Shown here one piece after another: positions 1 through 17,100 of a stretch of DNA of 64,000 bases. The translations under genes were made by a program, and so were the position numbers. The stretch lies in assembly GCA_000002435.2 (NCBI GenBank), contig CM018793.1, one strand, 5' to 3'. The stretch is from Giardia intestinalis (lineage: Eukaryota). How positions within the stretch are numbered: the stretch's first letter is position 1; each line of letters starts with the position of its first letter. The notes under the pieces were generated by a model, which ran no database searches, was not told the DNA's origin, and saw only the letters and a list, made by a program, of their open reading frames with translations.

Positions 1-514
1 TTTCTGGAGCTGCACATACTACACAATTCTCGATACCTTTATACGTGTTACCGCCATTAACCTGCACTCCAGTTGTATCACTGCACGATATGCAGGAATC
101 TGTCGTGTCGGCCGCCTCTGGGCTTTTGAAGAATCCCCCAGTAGCATTACATTCTGTGCAAACGCCAGCAACAGCATTACGCCCTCCAGGTGAAGCAGCT
201 TGATCGTTGCAGATGAGGAGTGCGACATCACTGCCAAGTTGATAGCATCCACCCTTGTACATGAAGTATGTGTTCTCACATTTTCCACATGTCTTATCGT
301 CAACAAGCTCATTACCGTTAACTTTCTTGCATTTATCAGCCGCATTACCTTTTGGTGTACACTCCCCATTGATAGGAACGTTTCCATTTGTCGCGCATTC
401 TGTACAAATTTCAGTGCCGCCAACCATCTCACACTTACCTGCTGCACAATTTTGTACTTGCTTACATTGTGCCGCAAGGGCGCTCAGCCCAAGATAGAAA
501 GCTATCAGCAACAT
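1..514 (-). CDS. Cysteine-rich secreted or surface protein, VSP/HCMP-like; 3' end lies beyond the window edge
   Basis: Manual reverse-complement translation from the ATG at 514-512 gives MLLIAFYLGLSALAAQCKQVQNCAAGKCEMVGGTEICTECATNG...YKGGCYQLGSD...CISCSDTTG...CVVCAAPE. This shows an N-terminal signal peptide, repeated CXXC motifs and a GGCY motif. These are the hallmarks of Giardia variant-specific surface proteins and high-cysteine membrane proteins. The frame stays open to position 1, so it is absent from the ORF track, which lists only closed ORFs. The track ORF at 19..477 (-) is an out-of-frame artefact of this gene. Confidence 0.6.
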   Translation of the reverse strand, partial: MLLIAFYLGLSALAAQCKQVQNCAAGKCEMVGGTEICTECATNGNVPINGECTPKGNAADKCKKVNGNELVDDKTCGKCENTYFMYKGGCYQLGSDVALLICNDQAASPGGRNAVAGVCTECNATGGFFKSPEAADTTDSCISCSDTTGVQVNGGNTYKGIENCVVCAAPE

Positions 515-3500
515 TGAGATTCTTCTTAATCCACTATCAAGAATCCTACTAGCAAAGATACCCAAAGCTAAAAAGCTCCATTCGGTTATTGCTATGCTGC
601 CAGCTTAAAGAAATCCCTTTTTGATAATATTGTTGTACAAGAGATAGTTGTTAATGCCGAAAGCATCTACTAACTATAGTCTAGCACCCACCGCGGACCC
701 CTGCACAACATGCAGGGAAACAGAAAATTCAAAAATAAGTAGCAATGCTGTCCCGCGCGCATGCTGCTCCTCTACCCTGTGGCCAATCAGGGGGCGGCCC
801 GGGTGACCTCCCTGTGTTATGGGCCCACTGCTGGTTCCTCTCTTAATGTCTCTGCATTCCTGGGGAATTGGCCTCTTACGCCTTCCCTGTGCGGGTCGGG
901 CCCCTGCGGACCCCCGTGCGCAGATGATCTCTTCTCCGCCTCTATAGTATTCTCATCCCTTTGGACTATGTCTGCGACTTCTGGTTGTCATGGAGGAATC
1001 GCGCTCAAGGACAGTCCCTTGCAAGATCCCGAGAGACGGTTACAGTGGTCGCTAGGGTCCGTGGAAGTGCGAATCAGTGTAGATTAGCCTATGAGACGCT
1101 CTGGTTTGTTGGGTGTGCATGGTGCTATTTCTGGCTTTTTGTAGTGGATACTATTAAGATTCCCCATCGCATGATAAGGCGTCAGATGGTCAGAGGGCGT
1201 AGGCTAGTACTCCCAAATTTAAACAAGGAGGAAACCCTGCTCAAACTGTGCCATTTCTTGAGCTAACGGGGCAGGATTTCTATCCCCCTTCTGGATCATC
1301 CTGGTGCTATCACTACCACCACTAATGGAAGCACCTAGGAGTGCAATACCTTGAGCCTGTTAGTGTAGGGCTCTAGGTCCTCAGAGCTTCCTACATGTAG
1401 ATGCCTGTGAGGAAAGAATGGAGATCCAAGGAGGTTGTGTTGATTTGCCAGCAATTGGCCGGATGCCTGGTCCAGTACCCTCTATAGCCTCTTGTGGATA
1501 CTAGAGCAGTTGACCCCCATCTGCTGATAAGGGAATCGAATAGCATTCGTTCATGACCTTTGGTCCTAGCTGTATTTGGTCCCGAGGAGACACGCCAATC
1601 AGCCCAAGCATCCTACCTTTTGACTCACGAATCATGCCACACTGTAGGACTTGTACTGGTGCACCTTAGCATGCGTTAAATAATCCATAGAAGACCGGTA
1701 TCCTCCTGTCATATAGCTACAGGAGTCAGATAAAGCCTTACTGAGGGAACCATATCTTGCGATCCCCCGTGACCCCACTAGAGATCAAAAGAACCGATGT
1801 CTACGAGCTGATGTGAAAAATAGCAGGGTCCGACAGCATGCACCTTGAGTTGGGGATTCTATAAGCATGCACCTCTAATAAAGCTCTCAAGATCTTGTAG
1901 GAAGCTGACCTAGGTCAGTGACTGGAAGATCTTCAATGGGCAGGCGACTGCTGTGGTCTACTAGTCGCTCACCCCCTTTGTCGTGAAGGATATCTGTTAA
2001 TGTCTAGTGCTGCGGGCTGGGTGGCCCTTGTTCATCTGTGAGATTCGACTGGTGTATGTTGTAGACGAGTGACGAGATTGATATCGCCCTCTATCAGGTG
2101 GCTTTACATGAGTGGACAGACTCTGTAGTTGACCGGTTATTCCAGAAAGTCCTGCGCCTATGAGGTCACAGCCACAACCTGTATACGACAAGTAAAAGGC
2201 TCATTGGGATGAATGCTCTCTGCAGATCCCGCCGACTGTGTGGCTCATCACTGCCAAGCCTTCAAGATGGTAGCCTTGCTTGGCTGAGGCTTGCAGGTAC
2301 GAGTACAGTACAGCATCTTTCGAATCTACGGAGTCAAGCATACCTCAGACAATAAGGACAGGTGGAGACCCGAAGACAGCTAATACTAACCATGAGCTGC
2401 TCTGATCCTGTTATTCAAGAGAATAGTAGGGCCGCAGAATGGCAGGGTCCACTTTTGTGCTCTGCTCAGGGAGGCTGTGCCTTGGTGAAGGTATGCGTTA
2501 TGGCCACTATTGACTGCCCGTTGGCGGGCTATCACCTACTCTTGAGCCATTAACTAGGTTGCTGGTTGAATCAAGAAGCAACAACAGTATCATACGGACA
2601 ACGAGCAGAAAAGGCCGATGCTGATTGTATACCTCCCACGCCGAGTATACTCATTGTACAAGGCAAAGGGTCTAACGCCCTAAGTGGCCAGATGAAGCTA
2701 AGGCGCTTGTCAATAACGATATGCATACGGGCTTTAGCTGAGGGCTTGCGAGGGAATGTTGGGGAGCACAAGACTTGCCAGACTATATGAGATGCACAAT
2801 GAATGCCTACGTGGTAAACTGGTTGGCCTTTTCTTTGGTAGACAGGACCCTAGACTGTAGTGATTATTTGTATGACGTATGCCTTTGTGGGACCGATAAG
2901 AGCATTTGCATGCTAATCTGGAAAGGCCATCAGCAATGGTTGTACGAGATAGACAAGTAGAGGATAAGGGGTAGCCACGCCACTCTGGCTGATGAGCAAT
3001 CTAAACTACACAACGCGTGTGTCAATCTTTGGTCAAAGGCAGAGATGCATCTAGAATGTCACGTGGGCCGAGGACGCTGCTGATGGCTACCCGTTATGAG
3101 AAGGTGCAAGTGAGACACCTGCTAATAGCAACCACGTCGATTGGTACTGGCCTGCACAGTATATCTCTACAGTAGATCCTTGCTTGTATACGGAGAAAAG
3201 ATAAACGTCTTCGGCCTCAGACGAAACAGGTCCCAATAAATATTACACTGCTATAAGCGCATAAATCAAAAACTAGCTTCACCTGTCTGCAGACCTCGCG
3301 ATTTTTCTACACTCGAAGGCCAGAGAGACACCACAGGCGTCCCCATTGCAATCCGGATCTACAGCTTGTCTCTATAACGTCAGGCTTACCTCACTGATCT
3401 GCTAGTCGCCTTTACAGTCTTTGTGCAAACTTGCTCTCCAGGAACCACCGTGCACAAATAGCCTTTTGCGTACCTACCTAACATCTTCCTTCGTTGAAAT

Positions 3501-4669
3501 GTGGTGCCAAGGGCTAAGCATTATGAGGGGAGTGTGACCAAAAGCAAACCTCCTTGTAGTCTTGTCAGTATTAGTAGTGAGCATCCAAATGAGTGCATAG
3601 ATGCTTATCAAGTGCACTGTGATCCAGACTGCTCAGTAAGCTAGGCTCGTAGTAGGTAGTTCATGGGCCTCCGTCGCTAGCCCATGCATGAGCCGTTAGT
3701 CTCCTTGAGAGACGGTGGAGAGTTCCGTAGTCTTTCTGAATATACGGTCGTCACTATAATTGGTAGAGGAGTAGGCACAAAGACTAGAGGCTTACTTAGA
3801 GGCATCTCTAACACGACTAACTGCTATTTTCCGCTAACAACAGACAGGTTAGGCATTATGGTATTTACGCCACCTACTAGGGCGGCGCATGGCCATACAT
3901 GCATCAGCAGAGAAGCTGCTGTAATCTATGCTCAGTCTGCCGGGCAGACGCAGCTTCTCATCGCAGCAAACACGGTGACGGACAAGTCGCCAATGTAAGC
4001 CGGTCAAACTGCCCATCTCGGTACATCCATATGCAGTCGGAAGCTGTAGTACACATCTATGAAGATAACGCACCGTCTGCATGCTGTTGCCTCACTCTGT
4101 GCTAGTTATAGGGTTTAATGCCTCAGAAGTCAGGGCTAGTGTAGAATGTTCTAGAGTGTTCGTCTAGGAGACCAAGGTCGATACTGTGTGTGATGCACTC
4201 TTCAAGGAGACAGCAGCTACTGTCGTCCTTTCGGATTTTTTGGTGTCAGACAATCGGCCCCGTGGTGAGTTTACTCTTCGCAGCCTCCGTCTTCATATTG
4301 AGCCTGGCATCTGGCTGCTCAGGCTGTGGATGAAGAGGACGGTGCAGAGTATCAGTCGCTGGGCCGCCTTCTATTCGCACATTGTTCTGAGAAACAAATA
4401 GGACAGTACAGCTTCCTCTTTTGCTCTGGATGTGATGCAACCTAGCCGAGACATCTGCGCTTCTAGGGAGTGGCTGGTCAGTACCTAGAGGCATTCTGAT
4501 GGGCATGCTCACTACCGCCTGACTCTGTCCCCTCCCCGGCTACCAGGGGATGATGTCTTGAATGCATGCCCACAGAGCACTGCATAGCGATAACAAGATG
4601 GTGCTATCGCCCCTCAGGCTTCTCCAGCCTGTCTAGCAGTGTACTTCTCAGAGTCCAGTGTGGGCCTAC

Positions 4670-4689
4670 TAGTTGTATCGATACAACTA
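4670..4689. repeat. 20-bp perfect palindrome tagttgtatc|gatacaacta, centred on an ATCGAT core
   Basis: Read directly: positions 4670-4679 are the exact reverse complement of 4680-4689, and the flanking bases break the symmetry. It lies in the ORF-free stretch. Confidence 0.8.
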
Positions 4690-5282
4690 TAGATACCTTA
4701 TAGTATCACACCCGTCCAGCTCACCGTGCCCTGTCCCATCTAGAGAGCAGCCCAGCCGTGCACAGGAGCCCTTAGCTCCTATCCAGGACCTGGTCCAATG
4801 CTCAGCTGGTTCGGATTCCCTGCTACATCTTGCTGAAAGCCATGCTGAAGCCATCGACCCGGCGATTGCTCTAGGTTTACAACCCCCACACTCAGCCACC
4901 ATACACCCTTCTCCATGACAGGGAGGTTCGCTAGAGGAAGATGCTAGAGCTCTCTTGTTCCTGTCTCCTGGCCCTCCTGCTCATTCTATTGGATGCTCTC
5001 TAGACTCTTTTCTTCGAGTCCCCGCAGGCCTTCCTCAGCGGCTCACTCGTGGGAGCAGCCGCGGGTTTGTTGTCTACTGGGGACGCAGAGGGCTAGGCGT
5101 TGGACCACCGACTTCCCCATTTGGGCTTCTTCTCCCGCTGAAGTGGACGACGTTTGACTTGCGAAGTCTGGATTTGGATTTCGGTTAGTGAGTAAGCAAG
5201 AGACCTGCCCAGGGCGGCGCTGGCTCGCATGGGAGATTTTCTTGGACAGCAGCTGGCAAACCGGTTTTAGTGACGAAAGTAA

Positions 5283-5720
5283 ACCATCATTCGTGATGCT
5301 GAACAATGCGTGAAGAACGGGGCTGCCTGCAACTGGACGCCCAAGGCGAGGGGCGGAACGTGTGTGCAGAACGCCACGGGCGCATGGACGTGTCAGTGCA
5401 ACCCGGGCTACGTTGGAAGGCATTACGACCTCTGCGACAAGGGCATGACGGCTGTCGATGGGACCTGTACGCCTCACAATCTGGTGAAACTATACGCTAG
5501 CAAGAAGTGCCTGAACACCCGTCTGGCCGCCAGCGTGTGCACAGGGCACGGGGAGTGCTACAAGGACGCCTGTGTCTGCGCCGAGGGCTACCACGGGGAT
5601 CTGTGTGACTGCCGTGTGAGGAACATCGGGGCCGTGGCGGGGGTGACGGCGAGCACGGCCGTCTTCTTCGGGCTCCTCTTCCTGTCTGTGGCCAGGTGTC
5701 ATAGGACGCCCGCCCGGTAG
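5283..5720 (+). pseudogene. Start-less EGF-like/HCMP-like C-terminal fragment: EGF modules, a transmembrane helix and a short tail
   Basis: The open frame runs from the stop at 5280-5282 to the stop at 5718-5720 and reads ...CVKNGAACNWTPKARGGTCVQNATGAWTCQCNPGYVGRHYDLCDKG...CTGHGECYKDACVCAEGYHGDLCDC, followed by the hydrophobic stretch AVAGVTASTAVFFGLLFLSVA and then RCHRTPAR. There is no in-frame ATG; the track start is a GTG. The fragment begins where GC content rises sharply. Confidence 0.45.
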
Positions 5721-5773
5721 GGTGTACAAGTCCCGCACACGGCTAACCTACCCGCAGCCCAAAAAAGGACCGG

Positions 5774-7687
5774 ATGTTGCTGCTTACCTTGTCTTTCCTC
5801 TGCGCGGCATCGGCCGAGCGGGACCCGTTCAGCATCCATATGGCGTGCGAGCATGCCTTCGAGCGCTTCGTCGGCCTCTACGGGAAGGCCTACGACACGC
5901 CCGGGGACCGGCTGGAGGCGGAGCGGAACTTCTGCATGCACCTCGAGCACCTCCGGAGGCTCCGCCGGGAGGGCCACGAGCACGTCACCTTCGGGATCAC
6001 GTCCCGGATGGACCGCCACCCGCGCGCCGGCCTCCTCCCGCCCCGGTCGCTGGGGGGCGGCGAGTGGGGCGCAGTCACGGGCACATGCACACGAGATGAT
6101 AAATCGAATAAGTACACCAACTGCAACGTCGATGCATACGAGCTGGGGCCGGACCTGAAGGGAGACACTCAAGCTAATTCACAGAGTGCCAACGCTGACG
6201 ATAAGAGCAAGAAGCAGGACAGCTTCTTCCTCGTCGACGTGCGGGACATGAACGTCAACGGCAGGCAGCGGACGCTCCCCCACTCCGTCGACCTCCGCGA
6301 GGTGGGCCTCGTGACCCGCGCGAAGGACCAGGGCCTGTGCGGCTCCTGCTACGAGTTCACGACCATCGAGGTCCTCGAGAACCTGATGCTCGTCGACGCA
6401 GACCTCTACACGAGGGGGAAGTACCTCGATCCTAAGCCCTTTCCGTCGAACTACTTCTGCAACTGCTCGGCCCCTGCGAGTCAGGACGGGGACCAGAAGA
6501 GTAATGACTGCACCACAGGACTGATAACTGTTACAAATCGCACCGAACAGGACTATACCGACATCCCCGAGAACTGGAAGTCCTACAGCGCGTCCACCCT
6601 GCGCCTCTCCGTCCAGTTCCTCCTCGACAACCTCATCGGCGGGAACTACTGCAACGGGGGGAACTACTTCCGCGCCATCGCAGACTTCGTCAACAAGCTG
6701 AGCAAGCTCGCGAAGGAGTCCGAGTGCATCTACAGGGAGTACGCGACGCCCGAGAAGGCCGCCCCAGACGATGGTACTAAGTGTCAGGACACCAACATAG
6801 GAGACTTCAACCCTGCCTTCGTCTCCATGCCGATGAAGAAGAAGGGCAGCTCTTCTAATTCTGGCGCTGCAGCTACCGACGAATATGAGTATGATGTCAA
6901 TGGTGGCTCAGGCACCCCCAAGAAGTTCGGCGTCTACCAGATCCTGCGGAACGAGGGCGTGCCGGCCTCGGGGCCCATAGTCGGGGAGATGGACAAGGGG
7001 AAGTTCGCCGAGTGGGAGCGGAACGTCATGAACGTCCTGGCCCGCGGGGTCGGGGTCGCGGCGGCCATGCACACAGAGTCCGGCGTCGACACGTCGATCG
7101 ACAAGGACTACGAGTCCGTCGTCGCCTCTGCGCTGACGTTCAACCTCTACAAAGGCGGCGTCTTCCCCGACGTCAAGTGCGTGCGCGCGACCACGAACCA
7201 CCAGGTCATGCTCGTCGGCTACGGGGCGTACAAGGGCCGGCCCGTCTGGATCCTGCGCAACTCGTGGGGGACCGGCTGGGGCGTCTCGGGCTACTACTAC
7301 ATCGGCCGCGGCTCCAACTCGCTCTGCCACGAGCTGACCGTCGAGTACACGATGCCCCGCTTCTACGGGCCCGACCGCGACGGCGTCCACCCGCTCTTCC
7401 TCTCCGCGCCCGACGAGGCCCAGAAGGTCGCCATCGCAGACGCCGTCCGCGCCTCCCCGTTCAACAGCAAGATCAAGCGGTGCGTGAACGGGCTGGACAC
7501 GGTCGACGCGCACGGGGGCACGATGTGCGAGGCCCTCGAGGTCAGCGCGTGGAACTACGTCCTGGTGGGGGCCCTGGCCATCGTCATCTTCTTCCTCGGC
7601 CGGTACTGCATGCAGTACTACTTCTGCGCGCCGGAGTACATCTTCCACAGCCCCCTCAACCTGAACCTTCCGCACAAGGGCGTGTAG
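5774..7687 (+). CDS. Papain-family (C1A) cathepsin L-like cysteine protease precursor with signal peptide, I29-like propeptide, long low-complexity insert and C-terminal transmembrane anchor
   Basis: The signal peptide is MLLLTLSFLCAASA. The propeptide segment is ERFVGLYGKAYDTPGDRLEAERNF. The catalytic-Cys motif is KDQGLCGSCYEF, with Y in place of the usual W. The His motif is NHQVMLVGYG and the Asn/Trp motif is NSWGTGWG. The C-terminal hydrophobic helix is WNYVLVGALAIVIFFLGRYCM. The gene is GC3-saturated. Confidence 0.8.
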   Translation: MLLLTLSFLCAASAERDPFSIHMACEHAFERFVGLYGKAYDTPGDRLEAERNFCMHLEHLRRLRREGHEHVTFGITSRMDRHPRAGLLPPRSLGGGEWGAVTGTCTRDDKSNKYTNCNVDAYELGPDLKGDTQANSQSANADDKSKKQDSFFLVDVRDMNVNGRQRTLPHSVDLREVGLVTRAKDQGLCGSCYEFTTIEVLENLMLVDADLYTRGKYLDPKPFPSNYFCNCSAPASQDGDQKSNDCTTGLITVTNRTEQDYTDIPENWKSYSASTLRLSVQFLLDNLIGGNYCNGGNYFRAIADFVNKLSKLAKESECIYREYATPEKAAPDDGTKCQDTNIGDFNPAFVSMPMKKKGSSSNSGAAATDEYEYDVNGGSGTPKKFGVYQILRNEGVPASGPIVGEMDKGKFAEWERNVMNVLARGVGVAAAMHTESGVDTSIDKDYESVVASALTFNLYKGGVFPDVKCVRATTNHQVMLVGYGAYKGRPVWILRNSWGTGWGVSGYYYIGRGSNSLCHELTVEYTMPRFYGPDRDGVHPLFLSAPDEAQKVAIADAVRASPFNSKIKRCVNGLDTVDAHGGTMCEALEVSAWNYVLVGALAIVIFFLGRYCMQYYFCAPEYIFHSPLNLNLPHKGV

Positions 7688-7690
7688 CGC

Positions 7691-8917
7691 CTAGCGCCCG
7701 AACTCCCCGTCGTAGAGGGTGGTCAGGTAGATGTCCATGTTCTCGCTGAACCTCCGTGAGATCTCCAGTACATCGCTGTCCCCGATGGAGAAGTCGGACA
7801 GCCGCGGCCCCTCTGTGCTCCGGTAGTCGCAGAGGCTCTCCTCGTCTATGGAGACGACCCGGCTTGGATCGAAATTGACCAGCGTGTCGAACTTGTACTC
7901 GACCTCGCTCCGCTGCACTGAGATGGCGACCCCGCTGTTCAGGCCGCGCGCGCACCTTCCCACGCGGTGGGTGAGGGTGGCCAGCGACTCTGGGAGCTCG
8001 AAGTTGACCACCGAGCGAACCGCAGGAAGGTCGAGCCCACGGGCGAAGTTATCAGTTGCCAGGACGATCGTTGCAGGGTGTTCCTCGAGGGACTCGTTGG
8101 AGATGGCCGGGACAGACTCGAAGTTCGGCCTCCGGAAGACGTGCCCCTGGGCCACCAGCGTTATCCTGTACCGAAGCTCCTTGTAAACCTTGATCATCAT
8201 CAGGAACAGCAGGTGGGCGATGCGCTGCGCGGTGTGCCTGGAGTTGACGAAGACGATGCAGGGCAGGAGGGTGGTCCTCGAGTTGGTGATGGACCCGGCG
8301 GGGCTGCAGAGGAACCTGAAGACCAGGTATACGATGTCTATCTTGGAGTAGGTCCGCTTGAGCTGGACGACGAAGTGTTCGACGTTGGGCGAGAGGGCAA
8401 GGCGCGCGTGGCCCTCGTCGAAGTCCACCATGCACCCGCCGTGGAGGCCCATGTTCTCGAGCAGACTTGCCCGGTACTTCATGGTCGCAGAGAGGAAGAC
8501 AAACCTGTCCGTCGGGAGCCCAAGGCGGTGTCGCTGGGCGAAGAAGAGAGGCACGCGGAAGACGGCCGTGGAGTTCCGTTGAGCGAAGAACTCCCTGATG
8601 AGCGCCAGGAAGGACGTGTTGTCGTTGAGGAGGATGTGGTCTGCCTCGTCTATCACCACGTGCCGCAGCTTCAGGAACGAGGTTGCTCCGCGGGAGGCGA
8701 TTCCTGTGCCCGAGGCCGGCTTGACTGCCGTAAGGAGAGCAGAGACGATCCAGGGGGTGCCGCAGATGATGTACGATGTCTTGTCCTCTCCATACTCAAT
8801 GATATTTCTGAAGTCGGGAAGTTCAGAGTGTCTGAGCAGAGGCACACAGCGAACGAGACCAAGGAGCAGATGATAGACTGGCTGGAAGAACAGTGTCGCC
8901 TTGTGGATAAATGGCAA
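7691..8917 (-). pseudogene. DEAD-box RNA helicase lacking the N-terminal Q, I and Ia motifs; truncated copy or pseudogene
   Basis: The motifs appear in canonical order: Ib (IICGTPWIV), II (VVIDEADHILL), III (FLSATMK), V (ARGLDLPAVRSVVNFELP) and VI (HRVGRCARG). The track start is a TTG, immediately preceded by an in-frame TGA at 8918-8920. No GSGKT or Q-motif was found in any frame of 8918-9275 by manual translation. Its stop lies 3 nt from the cathepsin stop, in convergent orientation. Confidence 0.55.
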
Positions 8918-9275
8918 TCACAGACACCGACTATCTGCCAATACTATCTCGTCCGACACCAGCTAGACACATATGAATATAACACGCCCTTCTGGTCAGT
9001 AACAGATACTATGGAGTATCCGAAGGTCTCACTTATCAACGAGCCTTCAGATTATTTTTCGGCAGGCGATTATCTTTCTCGATTCCCTGAGGACACGGTT
9101 CAGCTGGTCGACAACAGCTAGGTAAGCTTTTTATCTTAAGAGTAGACTCAAGTGCATCGGAAGCTATAATGTTATGCAGCAAGCATTACACGTAGCTCAG
9201 CGAGGACACAGCGCTGAAAAACCGATTACTGAAGGTGACAGAGGGCAAAGTAAATCTTCGACAAAATACAATTCA

Positions 9276-11054
9276 CTAAAGTGTTTTTACATTACAGTGC
9301 TTTCCAAAGTATCCAACAGAACAAACACAGTTATATCCATTGCACTTTCCATGACCACTGCACACCTCGTTAGTAGCTGAGTTGGTAATACACGACTCGT
9401 TAACGCACTCGCCATCAATGACCTTAGCATCTGAGCGACAAGAGCATTTGTAGCTGCCATCATCTTCTACGCAACGGCCATATCCTCCGCAAACAGACGT
9501 CGTCTGCGCCACATCATCGTAACTCGTCACACATTCTTCGTGGACACACAAGTTATTGACAAATGTTTGGCCAGTAGGACACTGGTACCACTCACAAAGA
9601 GCCCCGCTATATCCTTCGTTACACTTACAGACGCCATCAGTGCAAGTTCCACGATTGCTGCAGATTATAAGTGAAGCAGTCACGCAGCTATTTGGAACAC
9701 AGATCCCCCCTGGAACGGTTTCATAACCGGAATCACAACTGCACATGTAACACACGTCGAACACATCTCTTCCAGAATATGCAATACAGGTACCTTTGCC
9801 AGAGCAGACCGATAGAGCATCAGGGTTGCGTTCATCAATGCACGACCATGGCTGGCAAACCCCATCTATCAGTGTCGCCTCCGACGAGCATTCTTCGCAA
9901 GTAGGACCTGAGTTTGTTGGGTTACAGCTACACACACCGGTGTCAAAGTCGCATGATCCCGCACTGTGACATAGCTGAGGCGGATTCGTCTGACTATTGG
10001 TGACACACGAGGACGGGTAGCAGACAGAATTCCGACCAATGTAGTCAGTGGGACAAATACACCGGGGAGGGTTCATTGAAGCATCATATGTGCCATGAGG
10101 ACACACAATGCCATTCACGATGCAAGAGGCATAGATGCAGGTGTTTTCGTAGAAGACGAAACCGTCATTACATGCGCAAGCCGCTCCATCATTGTTCCAA
10201 ATACAGCGGCCGTGGCCACCACATACACTCTCGTCGGAAATGCAGGCCTCCGGATAGCATGTCTCTTGAGCAGACACGAACCCTGGTTCGCAATCGACGA
10301 CCTTGTACTCGCAAGTGGGCCCATTGTATCCGCTATCGCAAACACAGCGAGTGCCAGCACAGATACCTCTATCAGAGCAGACCTCCGTTATGCCATACAA
10401 GTTATACTCAGTAATGCAGCCATTATAAATGCAAGTGTTATTGTAGAAGGTACCATCATATGGGTAGCACGAGCAAACATAGTGAATGTTCGGGAAGGGC
10501 ATAATCATGCAGCGGCCCAATCCATTGCAGACCAGTGTCTCTCCAGGGACAAATTCCGTCAGGCAAGACTTGTGAACACACGCTCCATCAATAAGAACAG
10601 CCTCAGATGAGCACTCTGTGCACTTTTCGCCCGCGTTCGCAGGATAGCAGCGACAGTATGGCGCGCTCCCATCGGTTGGCTGAATGCACGTCCCGTAGCC
10701 AAAGCAGACGCCTTCCTCAGTGTAGCAAGCTTCTGGAACACAGACCTGGTAGTCGTTAATGTAGCCCTGGTCACAGCTACACTCATAGCTTCCGTGTTCC
10801 GACTCCACACATTTTCCATGGCCATTGCAAACATCATCAGACGCAAGGTAGCAGATCGACGGGTAGCATCCCTGATTTCCAAGACTGTAGCCAGAGTCGC
10901 ACCTACAGACCGAGGCTGTGCAAGTTCCATGATTGTTGCACACTGTGTCTTCAAAAACACAGCTGGATGGATAGCAAGCTCCATCAACTTCAACCTCTCC
11001 GTCTGGGCAATGGATTGCGGTGCAGAGAGCCACTAGCGTCAAGACGAAGATCAT
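9276..11054 (-). CDS. Secreted tenascin-like EGF-repeat protein with about 15 or more EGF-like modules and no transmembrane segment
   Basis: Repeated units of the form CxCxxGYxGxxC occur throughout, for example CRCDSGYSLGNQGC, CSCDQGYINDYQVC and CVCDSGYNGPTCE. The signal peptide is MIFVLTLVALCTAIHC. The start is re-set to the ATG at 11054-11052, preceded by the AT-rich tract aacttaaaaacttg. The longer track ORF begins at a TTG at 11138. Confidence 0.7.
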   Translation of the reverse strand: MIFVLTLVALCTAIHCPDGEVEVDGACYPSSCVFEDTVCNNHGTCTASVCRCDSGYSLGNQGCYPSICYLASDDVCNGHGKCVESEHGSYECSCDQGYINDYQVCVPEACYTEEGVCFGYGTCIQPTDGSAPYCRCYPANAGEKCTECSSEAVLIDGACVHKSCLTEFVPGETLVCNGLGRCMIMPFPNIHYVCSCYPYDGTFYNNTCIYNGCITEYNLYGITEVCSDRGICAGTRCVCDSGYNGPTCEYKVVDCEPGFVSAQETCYPEACISDESVCGGHGRCIWNNDGAACACNDGFVFYENTCIYASCIVNGIVCPHGTYDASMNPPRCICPTDYIGRNSVCYPSSCVTNSQTNPPQLCHSAGSCDFDTGVCSCNPTNSGPTCEECSSEATLIDGVCQPWSCIDERNPDALSVCSGKGTCIAYSGRDVFDVCYMCSCDSGYETVPGGICVPNSCVTASLIICSNRGTCTDGVCKCNEGYSGALCEWYQCPTGQTFVNNLCVHEECVTSYDDVAQTTSVCGGYGRCVEDDGSYKCSCRSDAKVIDGECVNESCITNSATNEVCSGHGKCNGYNCVCSVGYFGKHCNVKTL

Positions 11055-11137
11055 CCAAGTTTTTAAGTTAGTTGAAATTATTTCTCCATTGTGGAAAGTT
11101 TGCAATAACGAAATTGCAAATTTGCTTCCTACAAACA
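11055..11137. promoter_or_regulatory. 83-bp divergent intergenic spacer between the tenascin-like gene and the HECT ligase gene; candidate bidirectional AT-rich initiator region
   Basis: Both flanking ATGs are preceded by A/T-rich tracts, caagtttttaag on one side and aaattgcaaatttgcttcctacaaacaATG on the other. There is no room for a long 5' UTR. Confidence 0.4.
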
Positions 11138-14100
11138 ATGGAAGGAGAATACGACTCTGACGTCACACCATATGACTCGCCGCAACCAGAATCTATAAAA
11201 GACTTCCTCCTCAACTTTAACCCATCACGTTTCAGATTCGCCATGCCTCTACGTCGGCAAGATCTGGATCCACCGCTATTAGTCGCAGAGACATGCAACG
11301 TGGAATTGGCTTGTGGCCGGGAGGCCATCTTATCCATCAGCCGCTTTAAGACCAGACAGCACCGTTTAAGGTATACTTTAGCGCGGTTGCGAGAGCGTAC
11401 CTCATGCCCTTCTGCAGTTTGCAATTGTCCCTGTGATAACAGCATTTTTGTCAGTGCTTCTGATCATGTTTGTGACACCATGGAAGCACCTACCATTGTT
11501 CCCTTATCTCTCACTTCTGATGCACAAATAAACCCCCAGTCGTCTCGGCCATCATCTGCTGGTTCAGCTGAGGCACAGACATTCCTTCACAATTGCCTTA
11601 ATAATTTCGCCGATCCGGCTGCTCTGAAGCAATGCACACAAATGCTACGAGAGAATAATAACTTGCTGCCATCAGAGCTGGTTACGACATCTTTTGTTGG
11701 GAACGTCAGAGATTGCCTTGTAGAACTTGGTGCCATGTTGTCCACTAATTACTCTGTATCAAATGTCTTAACTATAGCCCAGAAACAGTTCCTTACAGAG
11801 CTTCTCCGACGCACGAATAAGTTTTTTCTTAGCAACTCTCGCAGATATGAATCTGCACTAAGCTTCGTCTGTGCACTCTGGCCGCTCTGGGTGTACCTTT
11901 CTCAAGTTTTTGATAAAGCAATCTGCGACGTGGTTTCTACTAACCTTAACACTATAACAAAGTTCTACAGCATCAATGTTTCAAAGCGAGTTGGAGAGTA
12001 TATCCAGGCAATGCAAAAGTTGGATTCTACACAGCAAGGATCGGAAAAAAGCATAGATGACCCTGGAGAGCCAGTCGGTAAGTCTGACGACTCCAAGGCG
12101 GTGGCTAAGCTGTCTGTTGACAATATCATTTCAAGCCTACCATCGCACTCCTTGCTTCGCCGCTTCTGTGATGCAGGATTTAAAAACCCTTTTCTTCAAG
12201 CTGCTAGCTGCAAACTTACTTGCCAGCTGTTCACTATATGTAATGACCTGGTCTCTTTTCATCCGGATTTACGCATGCTCATTCACGGGGGTGTTACTTT
12301 TGAGTCCCTTCAAAGTCTCCCCCTCTCAGTTGAGAGCGTGAAGATCGCTAGATATACCTCCTCCAAGGTTTTCTTGCTGCAGGCGCAGCGTGTGTATCGC
12401 AAGTATGGCGATGAGATAGCTGCTGATGCGGACCTGGATGACCTCACACTTCTTCTTCATGACTACTATTTCCATGTGATACACAGCATGACAGAGGACG
12501 GGGTGGAAGAGCCAAGGGATGCGCCCTGTGACGTGAACCATTCTGGCTATATGCAACACTCTTCACTGAACAATGTATCCAAAAGCGACGAGCCAGAGGA
12601 GACGCTCACAGATATGTTTTACAAGCGTGGAAAAGAGGTAGATAGAGCGGTTCTCAGCGCTATTAACCTCCTTAAAGAACGGGCCAGGGAAGATGCTGTT
12701 TCTCCTACATTTACTGGTGATGATGGGTCTTCGGATGAGGATGACGCTGCTGTTGCAACAGAATTGGCCCGCCTGATGGCCTCTCCACCATCAGACTCTG
12801 ATTCCGATGTAGCTGAATCGACTACTACTGCAACTACTGCCATAGACTCCAGTGAAGAAGAGAGCGGTCATGCTGCTGACCCCACTGATGAATTAGGCGT
12901 CGCGCTTCCTAGTAGCCTGTGCACGGCTGTAAACGTACCTAGCAACGCGACAGTAGCCACAGCAGAGCCTGTCATTGAAGGACCTGTCACTCAACTTGAC
13001 GATACTCCAAATGATCAAGAGCCGACACCTCAGCTGCCTGAGGGCAAACTCAATGAACAGGCTGATGAAGAGTCCAGAAAAGACGTTATGCAAAGTGATG
13101 TTTATGATATCAGACAGATGCGAGCGATCAGCGAGGACTACGTCTCTAATTGGCTGAGTCACAACTTCCTCGAAGACGAAATGGCCATGTCTTTAGAGAC
13201 TCAAATGCGGCATATGTGTATGTTCATTTCCTCTGTTTCCCTCGTTGTCTCAGAAGCCGACTCTGAGGCAATCAACACGGAACCTCAGCAGGGACAATCA
13301 TTCTCGGAACAAGAAGAATATTTGCTTAGCCAAGCAATTGAGAAGCTGGCTACGCGGTTTGTAGAAACTGTATCTCTGGATGGACCTCTCAATAGTGTGA
13401 GCATAGCACTTATTCACGAGTTTCTCTGCATTTTCCTGTACTGCACGAGCCTTGGATTTGTTGGAGAGTTCGAGTGCATCAATTTTGACACCTTTCTGCA
13501 AATACTTCAGCACGTAGACTTGTATTCTGAGACTATCCGTTCTGTGAACAGATATATAAAGTCTATGAGTCTGCTCCAGAACGAGGACATCCGAGAGTCT
13601 CTTGTTTCTTACGATAAGAAGATATTTGACTTTCTTCTCAAGAAGTTCAGTATCGTCGATGATGCGTATTACCTCAACGCAGAAAATCCTGCACTAGTTC
13701 GCGACACTAGATTGACAAACTTGCAGTCTAGGATCCAAAACGTTGATGCCTTGAGTGCGACAGTTCGTGATCTCCAGAGGCTGATCGAGAAGCAGTGCAA
13801 TATGACCACTTGTGAGTTCATTAGTTCTTGCTTGATAGAGCATCAGTGCCTGAATTGCATCATTATGGACCTTATTATCCGATCACAAAAGGACTTCTCA
13901 GCGTTCCTCGTTGCCAATCCTGACCAGCTTCTCCAGCTTTTACATGTCTGCAAGGATAATTTACTGAACGATGTGCCTGCTAAAGAACTGGCAACAGAGA
14001 ACATCGACGTAACTCTCAGAAACAGGCTTTCATACTTCCTGCTAATGCTTTTCATTCTTTCACTGCTGGATACAGATACGATTGTTCACTCCATGCAGCT

Positions 14101-17100
14101 CCTACTGAGTCCTGTAGCTAACCCAGAAGAGACATGTGCAGATGGAACCACGGCTGAAGATAGTACTGCAGGAATGGAAAAGCAACACATAACTTCAGAC
14201 CCTACTCGTGCTATGAGTACGTTTACGATTGACAACGTTGTTACCTTGATCTGTGCATACTTACAATCCATATGTAAGTACTCGCAACAATACTCCACCG
14301 ATCGGAGCATTACATATACACTCAATACAATCAACAAGCCGGCTCGGGGCAGTGGGAAGGCGATCAAAATTCCCTTTGAACTGTTCAGAAACAAGGTTGA
14401 TGGAAGCATATACTTTGTGGAGGGAACAAGCGTGGCAAAGCTTTTGACTGTTATTACGGAGCCCTGCTATGCTGGGCTATTTGAGAAGTCGTATGCTCTC
14501 ATACCAAAATTGAAGGTTCGGTCAGATGCCGGTGGAATCGCTAGGCGTCTACTAACGACTGGGCACCTACCACTGGTGGGCATGCGTACTTTGAATACTG
14601 ATCTCTACGATCGTATCAAGCTAATGACGGGAAGGGAGCGGAGTGAGGATCTGCGTTATGTGGATAAGGCCATTCCACGGATACTTCTTGCATCTCTCTT
14701 TTTGGATCGCGTCGCTAGAGCACGCATACCCATATCTGCGTCCCCATTAGAGTCGCTGTTGATGACCCTTGAATATCTTGTCCACAAAAAGCTAATTACG
14801 CACTTGGCTGACCCACCAGATGGAGACTCCGTTTTGGCACAAAGCCTTTTCTGCTTCCCCGCAGGAATTAAGCCAAAGGTGTCTTCATTTATTGTGTCGT
14901 TGTTCACGCTTTCAAAGCATCCCATCAGCATGACGCTTTCTTATGCCCTATTCCACTGGCTAGAACTGCCAGCTACTGAGCTAGCTTTGTTTTACAATAC
15001 TCTGGAAAAATTGCCCAATTTTGGTTTTATCAATTTGCCCACAGAAAGGATTGCGGCAGCTTTAGCGGCCAAAGATGACCCTGAATCGTTGGATATAGTT
15101 GATCCCCATAGTGCTGAGCAAGCACCTGCCTCTCTTTTAGCGCAGCAGGGATTGCCAGGGACACTTGCTGCCACCCAAGTTCAGGCAGAAGCATCGTCTT
15201 GCAGCCTTGCTTCCTTCGCCTCTACAGACCTTTTGGACCAATCACTTATACATTCCCCTGTTGATAAGCTATTGTCATCCATGGGAACGCAAAGTACGTG
15301 TGCCTTTCAGTATCAATCACAAGCTATACTAGAAGAGTATACCTCCTTGGCGCAACTTTTTTACAGGAGCTTCACGCACGTGATAGTAATATTGCTGTTT
15401 GCGTTAGGGAACTGGAGATGTTATCCTCTCGGCCAGTTCTTGTACCTACCTGCTGAGCGGATATCCCAATTGCAAGGCAAGACCTTTTCTATTCCTGATA
15501 GATTGACCATGCTGAATTCACTATCTATCATCTTAGGGGAGATAGAAGCCATAGTGGCGTTTATACCGTTCATTCAGCAAACACTTCCTGTAGTGACGCT
15601 CCTCAGTGGTTGCCTGGCACACATTGACGAGGCCATCTTCTTAGGCAATGAACCCATCATACGAACGCTACTCCGTATTCTATTACCAGGAGAATTATAC
15701 TTCTCGCTGATGCGACCTCCGTCGGCGCAGACAGGGCAGATGCACTCTCTCACTTCCTCGTTGGCAACCAAGCCCTTGTCGGCAGGCGGGTCCATACTTC
15801 CGGCCCGTCCGCTATCCTCATCGTTAACCACTAAGCCAGGATACTTTATGACTGGATCAATTAATCAATCGCGTGGAGGACTATCTGTATCTCTTAAAAC
15901 CAAGCAGATGGTTCTTGCATGTCTACGGACTACCCTCGCGAACGCAATTCAAATGTGTGCATTATCTACTCTACCCCAGACCTATCCCTTCTATAATATC
16001 TATACAAACGAGCTGCTTCAGCTCTCTCAACTAGAAATATGCTCTATTTACCTAATAGGATGGTTGAGGCTCACTCAAAACTTGACACTATGCTATGATG
16101 GTGCCCTCGTTGCTCAGCTTGTCACAATTCTCTCCTACTTTCCGCAATTGAGGTACGGTATTCAGCGAGACACCCCTGAAGAGCCGTCCGAATTAGAACA
16201 CGCCGCATCTTTTAATGCGTTCGGTTCGGTGACCTCTAACGCGACTCCACTGATGCATACCAATTCCCCGGCTTTGCGCCCCTCATCAAGAGCGTCCACA
16301 GCTTCCAAGGCAACCTTGAGAGGGATATCAGCGGGAGCATCTAGCCTGAACTTTAGGAGTATTCCTGGTCTCTTTTCTCCTAACTTTAATGTGGTCAGCA
16401 CTCCCTTTATTGCGCTGCTTTTTCCTGCCTTTACGTTTGATGGGGCTGTGAGTAACTTCGTCGGCTGGATGATATACCATTTTCTTCTAGGTTACGTTAA
16501 ATCTGGCGGTTTAGAGGGGATGCTGCATCAAATACATATATCAGAGGAGTCTGTACCTTTAGCTGGTGTGTCTGTACACGCTGACTTAGATTCAGGACCA
16601 GAAAAGTATATCGAGTCATTAACCAGCTACTTCTCCACGCAAATGGAGCTTGTTTCAGCATGCAAGAATATATGTTCGCTTGTCTCTGCTCTCACATCTG
16701 TGCTTCAGTACGACATGCTCCACCTTTCTGATTCTTCAATGCAGCTCGGACACAAGCTATCTGCACATGTCCTTCAGGGCATGCTCATGGCTCTGCCCGG
16801 AACTGTGTGCAACACAGGTGAGTCTATGTTTGATGACCCCAACTCTACCAGTCGAATGGCAAAGATACTGATTCCTCTCTCAGCACCTTTGGGAGCATTT
16901 TCAACAGCCGGTTGCTTCGCCATAGATTTACCAAGCACGCAGGTTATCAAAACGGATGCAGAAGAAACAGATACTGCAAAAGAGCAAACAGAGGAAACTA
17001 AAGAAGAGACAGAAAAACAGACACTTGGTACCAAGATGATAGATGTATACGTTCCAGCGCCAAAGGTGGCTGGAAGCTTATCAGAGACGCATTTTTCGTA

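What the first reader, a model, noticed from the sequence alone, without database searches (positions are those of the whole stretch)
5283..8917. GC-rich compositional island bounded by truncated genes
From about 5.3 to 8.8 kb, third codon positions are almost saturated with G/C. Here both strands produce long spurious antisense ORFs, whereas the rest of the window is near 45-50% GC. The block holds exactly one intact gene, a membrane-anchored cathepsin. It is flanked by a start-less EGF/HCMP-like 3' fragment on the left and a DEAD-box helicase missing its Q/I/Ia motifs on the right. The frame is closed by a TGA at 8918-8920. Truncation at both edges is the signature of a transposed, duplicated or horizontally acquired segment, or of a recombination scar in a variant-surface-protein neighbourhood. 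The alternative is a highly expressed local cluster with extreme GC3.
Basis: partly seen in the sequence, partly recalled or inferred. Interest (0 to 1): 0.7.

Follow-up and report, generated by a model that had tools for sequence, protein, structure and literature searches.

The report
GC-rich dispersed gene duplication in Giardia
The GC-rich block is one of four scattered copies, in the Giardia genome, of a 3.5-kb segment carrying a membrane-bound protease gene and cut-off ends of its two original neighbours. The GC enrichment follows the edges of the copied DNA rather than gene boundaries, which points to repeated copy-to-copy correction (gene conversion) and not to foreign origin or high expression.

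Summary
Window 5.2-8.8 kb has 58-66% GC against 45-50% elsewhere. GC3 is 0.89 (protease) and 0.88 (helicase piece) against 0.44-0.63 for 19 other long ORFs.

The window is Giardia intestinalis WB. The protease is XP_001706883.1, one of four 95-98% identical paralogues in WB; isolate DH also has four.

The intact source locus lies on another WB chromosome: HCMP 1374 aa, protease, DBP6/DDX51-like helicase 561 aa (XP_001704954/53/52). The window copy keeps only the last ~145 codons of the HCMP and helicase codons 186-561. The same helicase junction occurs in DH and in P15 (assemblage E), so the duplication is old.

Within the intact helicase, GC3 jumps from 0.43 to 0.85 exactly at that junction. 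A distant Giardia relative shows only a slight rise (0.43 to 0.55). In assemblage B the copy starts at codon ~30 and GC3 is high throughout.

Paralogues resemble each other more within a lineage than across lineages. Best explanation: a segmental duplication kept similar by inter-copy gene conversion, probably GC-biased.

Horizontal transfer, transposition and an expression-driven codon bias are not supported. This is a known kind of phenomenon, but I found no report of it in Giardia.

The parts
4200..5282 (.). Non-coding GC shoulder. It is part of the 'type II' left flank shared with DH locus L003.
   Evidence: GC is 0.544 here against 0.491 for 600-4200. There are no ORFs of 200 aa or more. 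Window 1-4903 and 4935-5513 align to L003 at 90-91.5%; L003 holds 3.1 kb extra with a reverse-transcriptase remnant.
5283..5720 (+). 3' fragment (last ~145 codons, with transmembrane tail) of the 1374-aa High Cysteine Membrane Protein group 2 gene. It has no start codon near its 5' end.
   Evidence: EGF Pfam hits. It aligns to the 3' end of the intact 1374-aa gene in DH L004 and P15 L001. Homology begins at 5290 (TTCGTGATGCTGAA). The window carries 19-nt and ~111-nt deletions relative to DH. The intact WB gene is XP_001704954.1.
5521..8075 (.). Core of the repeat, present in every copy examined (W, DH L002-L005, P15 L001).
   Evidence: blastn limits and alignments. Identity to the DH copies is 85-100% in a patchwork. 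The stretch 6932-7730 is 99-100% identical in all assemblage A copies.
5721..5773 (+). Intergenic spacer and promoter region of the protease gene, conserved in all copies.
   Evidence: Alignment A1. GC is 0.60 although it is non-coding.
5774..7687 (+). Intact membrane-anchored papain-family (cathepsin K/L/S-like) cysteine protease, 637 aa. It equals XP_001706883.1 / KAE8305602.1.
   Evidence: 100% identity to P0041. PF00112 hit. Catalytic residues at 6338-6358, 7196-7213 and 7259-7282; transmembrane segment at 7541-7609. GC3 is 0.89. dN/dS between copies is 0.27-0.51.
7691..8821 (-). Codons 186-561 of a DBP6/DDX51-like DEAD-box helicase, lacking the Q, I and Ia motifs. WB annotates the part from the ATG at 8482 as a 263-aa 'Helicase conserved C-terminal domain-containing protein' (XP_001706882.1).
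   Evidence: Pfam Helicase_C. Alignment to the intact 561-aa helicase of DH L003, with the junction at LPDFRN = residue 186 = window 8821. Annotation. GC3 is 0.88.
8822..9146 (.). 'Filler' DNA that is not helicase and not GC-rich. It follows the helicase junction in two loci and contains the annotated 83-aa orphan ORF GL50803_0016323 (8870-9121, +). The TGA closing the helicase frame is at 8918-8920 (-).
   Evidence: Shared by W, DH L004, DH L002 and P15 L001 but not by L003. GC is 0.465. The ORF matches P0202 at 100% and has Giardia-only homologues.

Best explanation
The island is the chromosome-5 copy of a dispersed segmental duplication of about 3.3-3.6 kb in Giardia intestinalis WB.

Origin. 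The source ('master') locus carries three intact genes in a row: HCMP group 2 (1374 aa), a membrane-anchored cysteine protease, and a DBP6/DDX51-like DEAD-box helicase (561 aa). When the middle of that locus was copied to other chromosomal sites, the copy took the whole protease gene but only the adjoining 3' ends of the two convergent or tandem neighbours. That is why the window has a start-less HCMP tail on the left and a helicase lacking residues 1-185 on the right. These steps are shown.

Maintenance. The copies have since been kept alike by repeated inter-locus gene conversion, and probably by occasional crossovers that swap flanks. This is shown by lineage-wise clustering of paralogues and by mosaic patterns.

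GC enrichment. The extreme GC3 is best explained as a by-product of that conversion being GC-biased. Mismatches in heteroduplex DNA are repaired towards G/C. Silent sites in the stretch that is repeatedly converted therefore drift to ~85-90% GC, while amino-acid-changing positions are held by selection. This last step is inferred, not shown.

Function. The protease copies appear functional: intact ORFs, conserved catalytic residues, dN/dS of 0.3-0.5. They diverge 3-6 times faster in protein sequence between isolates than flanking genes do. This fits a variable surface-protease repertoire sitting in the VSP/HCMP 'variome'.
For: Duplication:
- There are four WB paralogues on three chromosomes-scale contigs and four in DH.
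- The WB master is intact, judged from consecutive accessions XP_001704952/53/54.
- An intact helicase lies next to the protease in DH L003 and P15 L007. An intact HCMP lies next to it in DH L004, P15 L001 and GS L008.
- The junctions are nested: 5290 and 5521 on the left; 8075, 8821 and 9146 on the right.

Ancestral state:
- A distant Giardia relative (L006) has helicase, HCMP-like gene and tRNA synthetase adjacent, with no protease between them.

Concerted evolution:
- The 8821 junction plus filler is shared by assemblages A and E, so the copy predates their split.
- Even so, WB paralogues are 94.8-98.0% identical, against at most 91.5% for any A-E pair.
- The two P15 copies differ by dS 0.026, against 0.15-0.19 between A and E.
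- No WB-DH pair reaches the 98-100% identity seen in the unique flank.
- There are 22 split patterns at 97 informative sites, Rm is 32, and a PHI-like test gives p = 0.0135.
- A 45-nt indel links the window copy to the master rather than to its positional orthologue.

GC tied to the copied tract rather than to genes or expression:
- GC3 is 0.427 for codons 1-185 and 0.846 for codons 186-561 within the intact DH helicase (Fisher p ~1e-24).
- The values are 0.454 and 0.851 in P15, and 0.43 and 0.55 in the outgroup.
- In assemblage B, where the copy begins at codon ~30, they are 0.73 and 0.76.
- HCMP GC3 rises from ~0.4 to ~0.8 only towards the copied 3' end.
- The non-coding spacer (0.60) and the shoulder (0.544) are also enriched.
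- A third flank type, shared by L002 and L005, is GC-rich too.
- Third-position substitution rates in assemblage A copies imply an equilibrium GC3 of about 0.8.
Against: - GC-biased conversion is not demonstrated directly. The derived-allele spectrum leans the expected way (W->S 20% singletons against S->W 45%) but is not significant (p = 0.11). Selection on silent sites would give the same trend.
- Other duplicated or converted DNA nearby is not GC-rich: the 8822-9146 filler shared by two loci (GC 0.465) and the neighbouring VSP (GC3 0.42).
- On the left, GC3 elevation in the intact HCMP extends ~0.5-1.4 kb beyond the longest copied tract I could see.
- The assemblage B argument rests on one frameshifted copy. 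The nucleotide sequence of the B master was not obtainable.
- DH and P15 are fragmented draft assemblies made of contigs (54-222 kb in the records used). The 800-bp stretch that is 99-100% identical in all copies could cause mis-joins. The flank swaps and part of the fine mosaic could therefore be assembly artefacts.
- Expression data were not examined.
Confidence: 0.6

Rival explanations
1. A local recombination or double-strand-break hotspot centred on the protease gene came first. Allelic repair between the chromosome copies of this tetraploid cell enriched GC. The same fragility caused the segment to be copied elsewhere, so duplication limits coincide with the GC block by common cause.
For: GC declines in gradients at the edges: the HCMP 3' end and the 4.2-5.3 kb shoulder. 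GC enrichment in the HCMP extends beyond the copied tract. Flanks appear to have been exchanged in three genomes.
Against: The GC3 step in the helicase is abrupt (0.30-0.46 to 0.74-0.98 within ~150 nt) and sits exactly at the duplication junction in both A and E. In B both the junction and the GC limit are displaced together to codon ~30. A hotspot alone does not predict that lineage-specific match.
Confidence: 0.2
2. Selection for GC-ending 'optimal' codons acts because the protease family is highly expressed. High GC3 is the usual mark of highly expressed Giardia genes.
For: The published analysis reports GC3s of 26-99% across Giardia genes and a strong positive correlation with the codon adaptation index (PMC8393687). 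Silent divergence in the island is low for the A-B distance (dS 0.43), which fits constraint on silent sites.
Against: The enrichment crosses gene boundaries on both strands. It stops in the middle of the intact helicase (GC3 0.43 against 0.85 in one ORF). It covers start-less gene fragments and non-coding spacer. The DBP6-like ribosome-biogenesis helicase is not expected to be highly expressed in only two thirds of its length.
Confidence: 0.07
3. A horizontally acquired or transposon-borne GC-rich cassette inserted between native genes.
For: The composition differs sharply from the surroundings. The protease is absent from the equivalent position in the distant Giardia relative L006. Reverse-transcriptase remnants lie in the DH left flank.
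Against: The GC-rich block includes parts of native genes (helicase, HCMP). The best non-Giardia hits for the protease are diplomonad cathepsins (28% identity, E 2e-27); bacterial hits cover only ~10% of the protein. There are no terminal inverted or direct repeats at the edges. The island is present in assemblages A, B and E.
Confidence: 0.03
4. An assembly artefact: a chimeric join of unrelated contigs at ~5280 and ~8920.
For: The particular pairing of left and right flanks seen in the window was not found in DH or P15.
Against: Each junction is reproduced in independent assemblies: 5290 in DH L003; 8821 and 9146 in DH L004 and L002 and in P15 L001. The right flank is collinear with DH L004 for 8.5 kb at 98-100%. 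The proteins match the WB long-read reference annotation (KAE83056xx; PMC7000408).
Confidence: 0.02

Closest known systems
Short, mostly one-gene segmental duplications of the Giardia WB genome (6.9% of the genome; Xu, Jex and Svard 2020, PMC7000408)
   Same: A dispersed copy of a few kb carrying one intact gene of a multigene family, sitting in a VSP/HCMP-rich, gene-poor neighbourhood.
   Different: That paper does not discuss composition. Here the copy limits truncate two neighbouring genes, and the copied tract alone is GC-saturated at silent sites.
GC enrichment of multigene families by GC-biased gene conversion (mammalian histones and Hsp70, rDNA across eukaryotes; Escobar, Glemin and Galtier 2011, as cited in PMC10123126; the histone and Hsp70 cases from my own knowledge)
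   Same: Paralogues evolve in concert, and silent sites are much more GC-rich than in single-copy genes of the same genome.
   Different: In Giardia this has only been suggested for rDNA. Here the signal is mapped to a breakpoint inside a single-copy essential gene, which gives an internal control. The bias itself is not measured here.
Segmental gene conversion among Giardia VSP genes and pseudogenes (cited in PMC7641422)
   Same: The same genomic compartment and the same kind of patchwork exchange between dispersed copies.
   Different: The VSP beside this island has GC3 of 0.42, so conversion in VSPs has not produced GC enrichment. The cargo here is a protease, not a VSP.
Genomic islands acquired by horizontal transfer
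   Same: A sharp compositional contrast with the flanks, and truncated genes at the edges.
   Different: The content is native (parts of resident genes), there is no foreign best hit, there are no mobility genes or repeats, and the island is conserved across assemblages.

Membership tests
Dispersed segmental duplication | Two or more copies at different loci with high nucleotide identity over kilobases | tested here: met
   The window aligns over 2.5-3.6 kb to DH L002-L005 at 95-97% and to P15 L001 at 87%, with unrelated flanks. Four WB proteins lie on three large contigs.
Dispersed segmental duplication | A source locus where the genes truncated in the copy are intact | tested here: met
   In WB, XP_001704952 (561 aa), XP_001704953 and XP_001704954 (1374 aa) have consecutive accessions on one contig. 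Nucleotide evidence comes from DH L003 and L004, P15 L007 and GS L008. The WB master DNA itself could not be fetched.
Concerted evolution by inter-locus gene conversion | Paralogues older than a lineage split are more alike within lineages than between them | tested here: met
   The 8821 junction is shared by A and E. WB paralogues are 94.8-98% identical, against at most 91.5% between A and E. The two P15 copies have dS 0.026, against 0.15-0.19 between A and E.
Concerted evolution by inter-locus gene conversion | Mosaic tracts and incompatible sites | tested here: met
   The nearest neighbour changes along the island. Rm is 32, 51% of site pairs are incompatible, and a PHI-like test gives p = 0.0135. 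Caveat: the draft assemblies could contribute chimeras.
GC-biased gene conversion | GC enrichment follows the converted tract, not gene or expression units, and includes non-coding DNA | tested here: met
   The helicase GC3 step is 0.43/0.85 at the junction in A and E, with no step in B where the junction lies at codon ~30, and only a slight rise (0.43 to 0.55) in the outgroup. The spacer has GC 0.60 and the shoulder 0.544.
GC-biased gene conversion | W->S changes spread to more copies or individuals than S->W changes | tested here: inconclusive
   Mean derived copy number is 2.75 against 2.39, and singletons are 20% against 45%. Mann-Whitney p = 0.11 with 20 and 64 changes.
GC-biased gene conversion | Biased repair of heteroduplex mismatches measured directly | not testable with these tools
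   This needs tetrad-like or reporter experiments, or population polymorphism data.
Horizontally transferred island | Closest relatives in a foreign lineage, and absence from sister lineages | tested here: not met
   The best non-Giardia hits are Hexamita cathepsin L. The island is present in assemblages A, B and E.
Transposable element | Terminal repeats, target-site duplication, or a transposition enzyme | tested here: not met
   There are no flanking direct or inverted repeats. There are no such Pfam domains in the block.
DEAD-box RNA helicase (DBP6/DDX51-like) | A complete set of motifs Q, I, Ia, Ib, II (DEAD), III (SAT), IV-VI | tested here: not met
   The window fragment starts at residue 186 of 561. 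Q, I and Ia are absent; Ib (GTPW), DEAD, SAT and HRVGRCAR are present. The intact paralogue's best named hits are fungal DBP6/DDX51.
Papain-family (C1A) cysteine peptidase | Pfam PF00112 above threshold, with catalytic Gln/Cys/His/Asn | tested here: met
   110 bits against a cut-off of 20.7. The alignment to cathepsin K covers QGxCGSC, NH and NSWG. The domain is interrupted by extra sequence between residues ~204 and 447.

The most novel reading that the evidence does not exclude
Giardia, an organism with no observed meiosis, has strong GC-biased gene conversion. Dispersed repeats that exchange sequence become GC-saturated at silent sites. Abrupt within-gene GC3 steps would then mark the limits of conversion tracts. 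GC3 could serve as a genome-wide, sequence-only record of where and how much homologous recombination has acted. Part of the famous 26-99% GC3 spread of Giardia genes would then reflect recombination history rather than expression.
Probability: 0.4. Interest if true: 0.7.

Novelty: new member of a known kind. Interest (0 to 1): 0.5.

Why it matters
The case bears on three questions.

1. It explains an eye-catching compositional island without invoking foreign DNA.

2. It gives an unusually clean internal control. One essential gene is half inside and half outside a repeat, and its silent-site GC doubles at the junction. This separates recombination-linked GC enrichment from expression-linked codon bias in Giardia. 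High GC3 in this organism is routinely read as high expression.

3. If the pattern is general, it offers a sequence-based handle on homologous recombination in a parasite whose sexual cycle is still debated.

It also flags a fast-evolving, four-copy family of membrane-anchored cysteine proteases in the variable compartment of the genome. Cysteine proteases are discussed in the literature as Giardia virulence factors (PMC10454693).

Tried and rejected
- Fetching the other three WB copies by exact protein look-up failed, because the WB assembly is not in the gene-position index. I used DH, P15 and GS loci instead.
- A first high-accuracy MAFFT run timed out and was repeated with --auto.
- I looked for remains of the helicase N-terminus in 8822-9275. 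Only a weak 'YHLLL' similarity appeared (tblastn E 0.025 in a 700-nt database; 41 nt at 73%). I do not treat it as evidence.
- I searched for a parent gene of the 8822-9146 filler. Only Giardia orphan ORFs turned up.
- Terminal repeats or target-site duplications: none.
- Polarised W->S against S->W spectrum: right direction but not significant.
- Literature searches for GC-biased conversion, segmental duplication of cysteine proteases, and GC3 in Giardia found no description of this locus or of the phenomenon.
- Not tried: structure prediction, Rfam, and metagenome scans. I judged them irrelevant to the question.


Full report
**What is there**

The window averages 48.3% GC. Between about 5.2 and 8.8 kb, GC is 58-66% in 1-kb bins and reaches 73.5% in 200-nt windows. 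A weaker shoulder (52-58%) runs from ~4.2 kb, and GC drops sharply to 41-49% after ~8.85 kb.

Among ATG-initiated ORFs of at least 200 aa, the two in the block have GC3 of 0.89 (5774-7687, +) and 0.88 (7691-8482, -). The other 19 have 0.44-0.63. GC1 and GC2 are unremarkable.

The left piece (5283-5720, +) is an EGF-type cysteine-rich frame without a start, ending in a transmembrane tail. The middle gene is a 637-aa papain-family protease with a C-terminal hydrophobic anchor and conserved catalytic residues. The right piece (7691-8917, -) has DEAD, SAT, HRVGRCAR and a Helicase_C domain but no Q, I or Ia motifs. Its frame is closed by TGA at 8920-8918.

**Identity of the sequence**

The protease is 100% identical to XP_001706883.1 / KAE8305602.1 of Giardia intestinalis WB C6, on a 4.02-Mb contig. 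Neighbouring annotated products are:
- a 263-aa 'Helicase conserved C-terminal domain-containing protein' (XP_001706882.1, from the ATG at 8482);
- an 83-aa orphan, GL50803_0016323 (8870-9121, +);
- a 592-aa Notch-like EGF protein (XP_001706880.1, 9276-11054, -).

The rest of the window holds ordinary Giardia genes: a HECT ligase, a Rab GTPase, a Myb protein, a folate carrier, an ENTH protein and a Sec7 protein. A VSP gene starts at 514 on the minus strand and runs off the left end. Between it and the island lie ~4.7 kb without any sizeable ORF.

**It is a multi-copy segment**

The protease belongs to a cluster with four WB members: two on a 2.76-Mb contig, one on 1.97 Mb and this one on 4.02 Mb. 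There are also four members from isolate DH (assemblage A2), one named P15 (assemblage E) protein, and five ~80%-identical proteins that are probably assemblage B.

I fetched the DH loci (L002-L005), two P15 loci (L001, L007), one GS (assemblage B) locus (L008) and a distant relative (L006). The window aligns with them only across the island:
- 5521-9146 with L002;
- 4935-8821 with L003 (plus its left flank);
- 5304-17732 with L004;
- 5521-8075 with L005;
- 5304-9136 with P15 L001.

**Source locus and junctions**

DH L003 and P15 L007 carry an intact 561-aa helicase next to the protease. Its best named relatives are fungal DBP6/DDX51, which are ribosome-biogenesis helicases. DH L004, P15 L001 and GS L008 carry an intact 1374-1376-aa HCMP next to the protease, preceded by a class II tRNA synthetase.

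In WB the three intact genes have consecutive accessions (XP_001704952/53/54) on the 1.97-Mb contig. WB therefore retains an intact 'master' locus.

In the distant relative L006, the helicase (42% identical), an HCMP-like gene and the same tRNA synthetase are adjacent. The helicase and HCMP-like gene even overlap by 4 nt, with no protease between them. The protease therefore entered or was retained at this locus only in the G. intestinalis lineage.

The junctions in window coordinates are as follows.
- Left, 5290: HCMP homology starts here, a junction shared with L003.
- Left, 5521: the left limit in L002 and L005, which share a different, also GC-rich, VSP-related flank.
- Right, 8821/8822: this corresponds to helicase residue 186 and is shared by the window, L004, L002 and P15 L001.
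- Right, 8822-9146: 325 bp of non-helicase 'filler' that the same four loci share.
- Right, ~8075: the right limit in L005.

No terminal repeats or target-site duplications flank the block.

**Concerted evolution**

The 8821 junction and filler occur in both A and E, so this copy arose before those assemblages split. Without exchange, a truncated copy in A should be closest to the truncated copy in E. Instead:
- WB paralogues are 94.8-98.0% identical to each other but at most 91.5% identical to P15;
- the two P15 copies differ by dS 0.026, against 0.15-0.19 for any A-E pair;
- no WB-DH pair is as similar (maximum 96.5% at the protein level) as the best within-genome pairs (98.0, 97.0, 97.6%), whereas the unique right flank is 98-100% identical between WB and DH.

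Along the island the closest DH relative of the window copy changes from segment to segment, and divergent sites come in tight clusters. Six sequences show 22 different split patterns at 97 informative sites, a minimum of 32 recombination events, and a PHI-like permutation p of 0.0135. A 45-nt in-frame indel (8531-8575) links the window copy to the master rather than to its positional orthologue L004.

Caveat: DH and P15 are fragmented draft assemblies. An 800-bp stretch (6932-7730) is 99-100% identical in all assemblage A copies. Some fine mosaicism could therefore be assembly artefact. So could the different flank pairings: the window has the L003-type left flank and the L004-type right flank, DH looks like the reciprocal products of a master-by-chr5-copy crossover, and P15 pairs the master left flank with the L002 right flank. 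The lineage-clustering argument does not depend on these assemblies being correctly phased.

**Why it is GC-rich**

The decisive observation is inside the intact helicase.
- In DH, GC3 per 150 nt runs 0.60, 0.38, 0.30, 0.46, then 0.74, 0.84, 0.88, 0.98, 0.78, 0.88, 0.88.
- Split at residue 186, GC3 is 0.427 (185 codons) against 0.846 (376 codons).
- In P15 the values are 0.454 against 0.851. Fisher p is ~1e-24 and ~6e-23 (with the boundary within 9 codons).
- The outgroup orthologue shows 0.43 against 0.55.
- In assemblage B the extra copy begins at codon ~30 (L008, with two frameshifts), and an intact 561-aa helicase sits on another contig. There, GC3 is 0.73 upstream and 0.76 downstream of residue 186.

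GC enrichment therefore follows the extent of the copied tract, lineage by lineage, and cuts through a single translated gene. Other observations agree:
- the intact HCMP has GC3 of ~0.4 over its first 2 kb, rising to 0.77-0.80 at the copied 3' end in A (0.61-0.68 in E);
- the non-coding spacer (GC 0.60) and the non-coding shoulder at 4200-5282 (0.544 against 0.491) are enriched;
- the alternative left flank shared by L002 and L005 is GC-rich.

These facts are hard to reconcile with codon selection for expression, which is the usual reading of high GC3 in Giardia (PMC8393687). They are equally hard to reconcile with foreign origin.

They are what GC-biased gene conversion among repeats produces in other eukaryotes. 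In Giardia that process has so far only been floated for the rDNA (PMC10123126). Polarising changes in the assemblage A protease copies against E and B gave 64 S->W changes (45% singletons) and 20 W->S changes (20% singletons). At third positions the per-site rates are 0.068 and 0.28, which imply an equilibrium GC3 near 0.8. The direction is as expected, but the spectrum difference is not significant (p = 0.11).

**What does not fit**

- The 325-bp filler, shared by two loci, is not GC-rich (0.465).
- The adjacent VSP, from a family known for gene conversion (PMC7641422), has GC3 of 0.42.
- GC enrichment in the HCMP reaches further upstream than the copied tract I could document.

A recombination hotspot that both enriches GC and promotes duplication remains a serious rival. 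I give the full chain (duplication, concerted evolution, GC-biased conversion) 0.6. The duplication itself is near certain, and concerted evolution is very likely.

**Function of the cargo**

- All protease copies have intact ORFs and catalytic residues. dN/dS is 0.27-0.51. dN between WB and DH copies is 0.017-0.043, against ~0.007 in the flanking genes.
- The helicase fragments have no internal stops and a dN/dS of 0.18-0.40 relative to the master. This is expected if they are continually overwritten from the functional gene, and it does not show that the 263-aa product is functional.

**Comparison with what is known**

The WB reference paper states that 6.9% of the genome is duplicated, mostly as short one-gene stretches rich in multigene families (PMC7000408). 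The island is one of these, and its genes are already annotated.

Within the searches I could run, I found no report of the following: the source locus and nested junctions, concerted evolution of this protease family, and the coincidence of GC saturation with the copied tract, including the within-gene step. I therefore class it as a new member of a known kind, with moderate interest.

Noticed in passing
window 2-514 (-): The N-terminal part of a VSP gene (MLLIAFYLGLSALAAQCKQ...) starts at 514 and runs off the left end of the window. It is 97.8% identical at the nucleotide level over window 1-500 to the corresponding part of the DH L003 VSP.
   Followed up: partly
window ~600-5282; L003:5937-9032: About 4.7 kb has no ORF of 200 aa or more, in an otherwise gene-dense window. 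It is homologous (84-98%, patchy) to the DH L003 left flank. DH has 3.1 kb extra there with a reverse-transcriptase (RVT_1) remnant.
   Followed up: partly
window 8870-9121 (+): An annotated 83-aa orphan ORF (GL50803_0016323) lies in the 'filler' that follows the helicase junction at two different loci. Its homologues are found only in Giardia, and the origin of this DNA is unknown.
   Followed up: partly
window 8531-8575 (-): A 45-nt in-frame segment (NSTAVFRVPLFFAQR, which repeats FFAQR) is present in the window copy and in the intact helicase. It is absent from DH L004 and L002 and from P15 L001.
   Followed up: yes
window ~5303 and ~5495: The HCMP fragment in the window has a 19-nt and a ~111-nt deletion relative to DH L003, DH L004 and P15 L001.
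   Followed up: partly
L003, L004 (DH); L001, L007 (P15) versus window: The island's left and right flanks are paired differently in WB, DH and P15. DH looks like the reciprocal products of a crossover between the master locus and the chr5 copy. This is either a real translocation or a mis-join in the draft assemblies.
   Followed up: partly
L006:2716-9422 (Logan SRR30592944): A distant Giardia-like genome has helicase, HCMP-like gene and tRNA synthetase adjacent, with no protease gene between them, and only a slight rise in helicase GC3 (0.43 to 0.55). The species was not identified.
   Followed up: partly
L008:7920-9496 (GS, assemblage B): A nearly full-length helicase copy (from codon ~30) with two frameshifts lies next to the protease and HCMP. 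An intact 561-aa helicase (ESU42738.1) is on another contig.
   Followed up: partly
window 6386-7114 (protease residues ~204-447): The papain domain is interrupted by roughly 145 extra residues compared with cathepsin K. The active-site motif reads CGSCY instead of CGSCW.
   Followed up: no
window 54080-55297 (-): An ENTH-domain (epsin-like) gene has the highest GC3 outside the island (0.63). The bin 54-55 kb has 53.8% GC.
   Followed up: no
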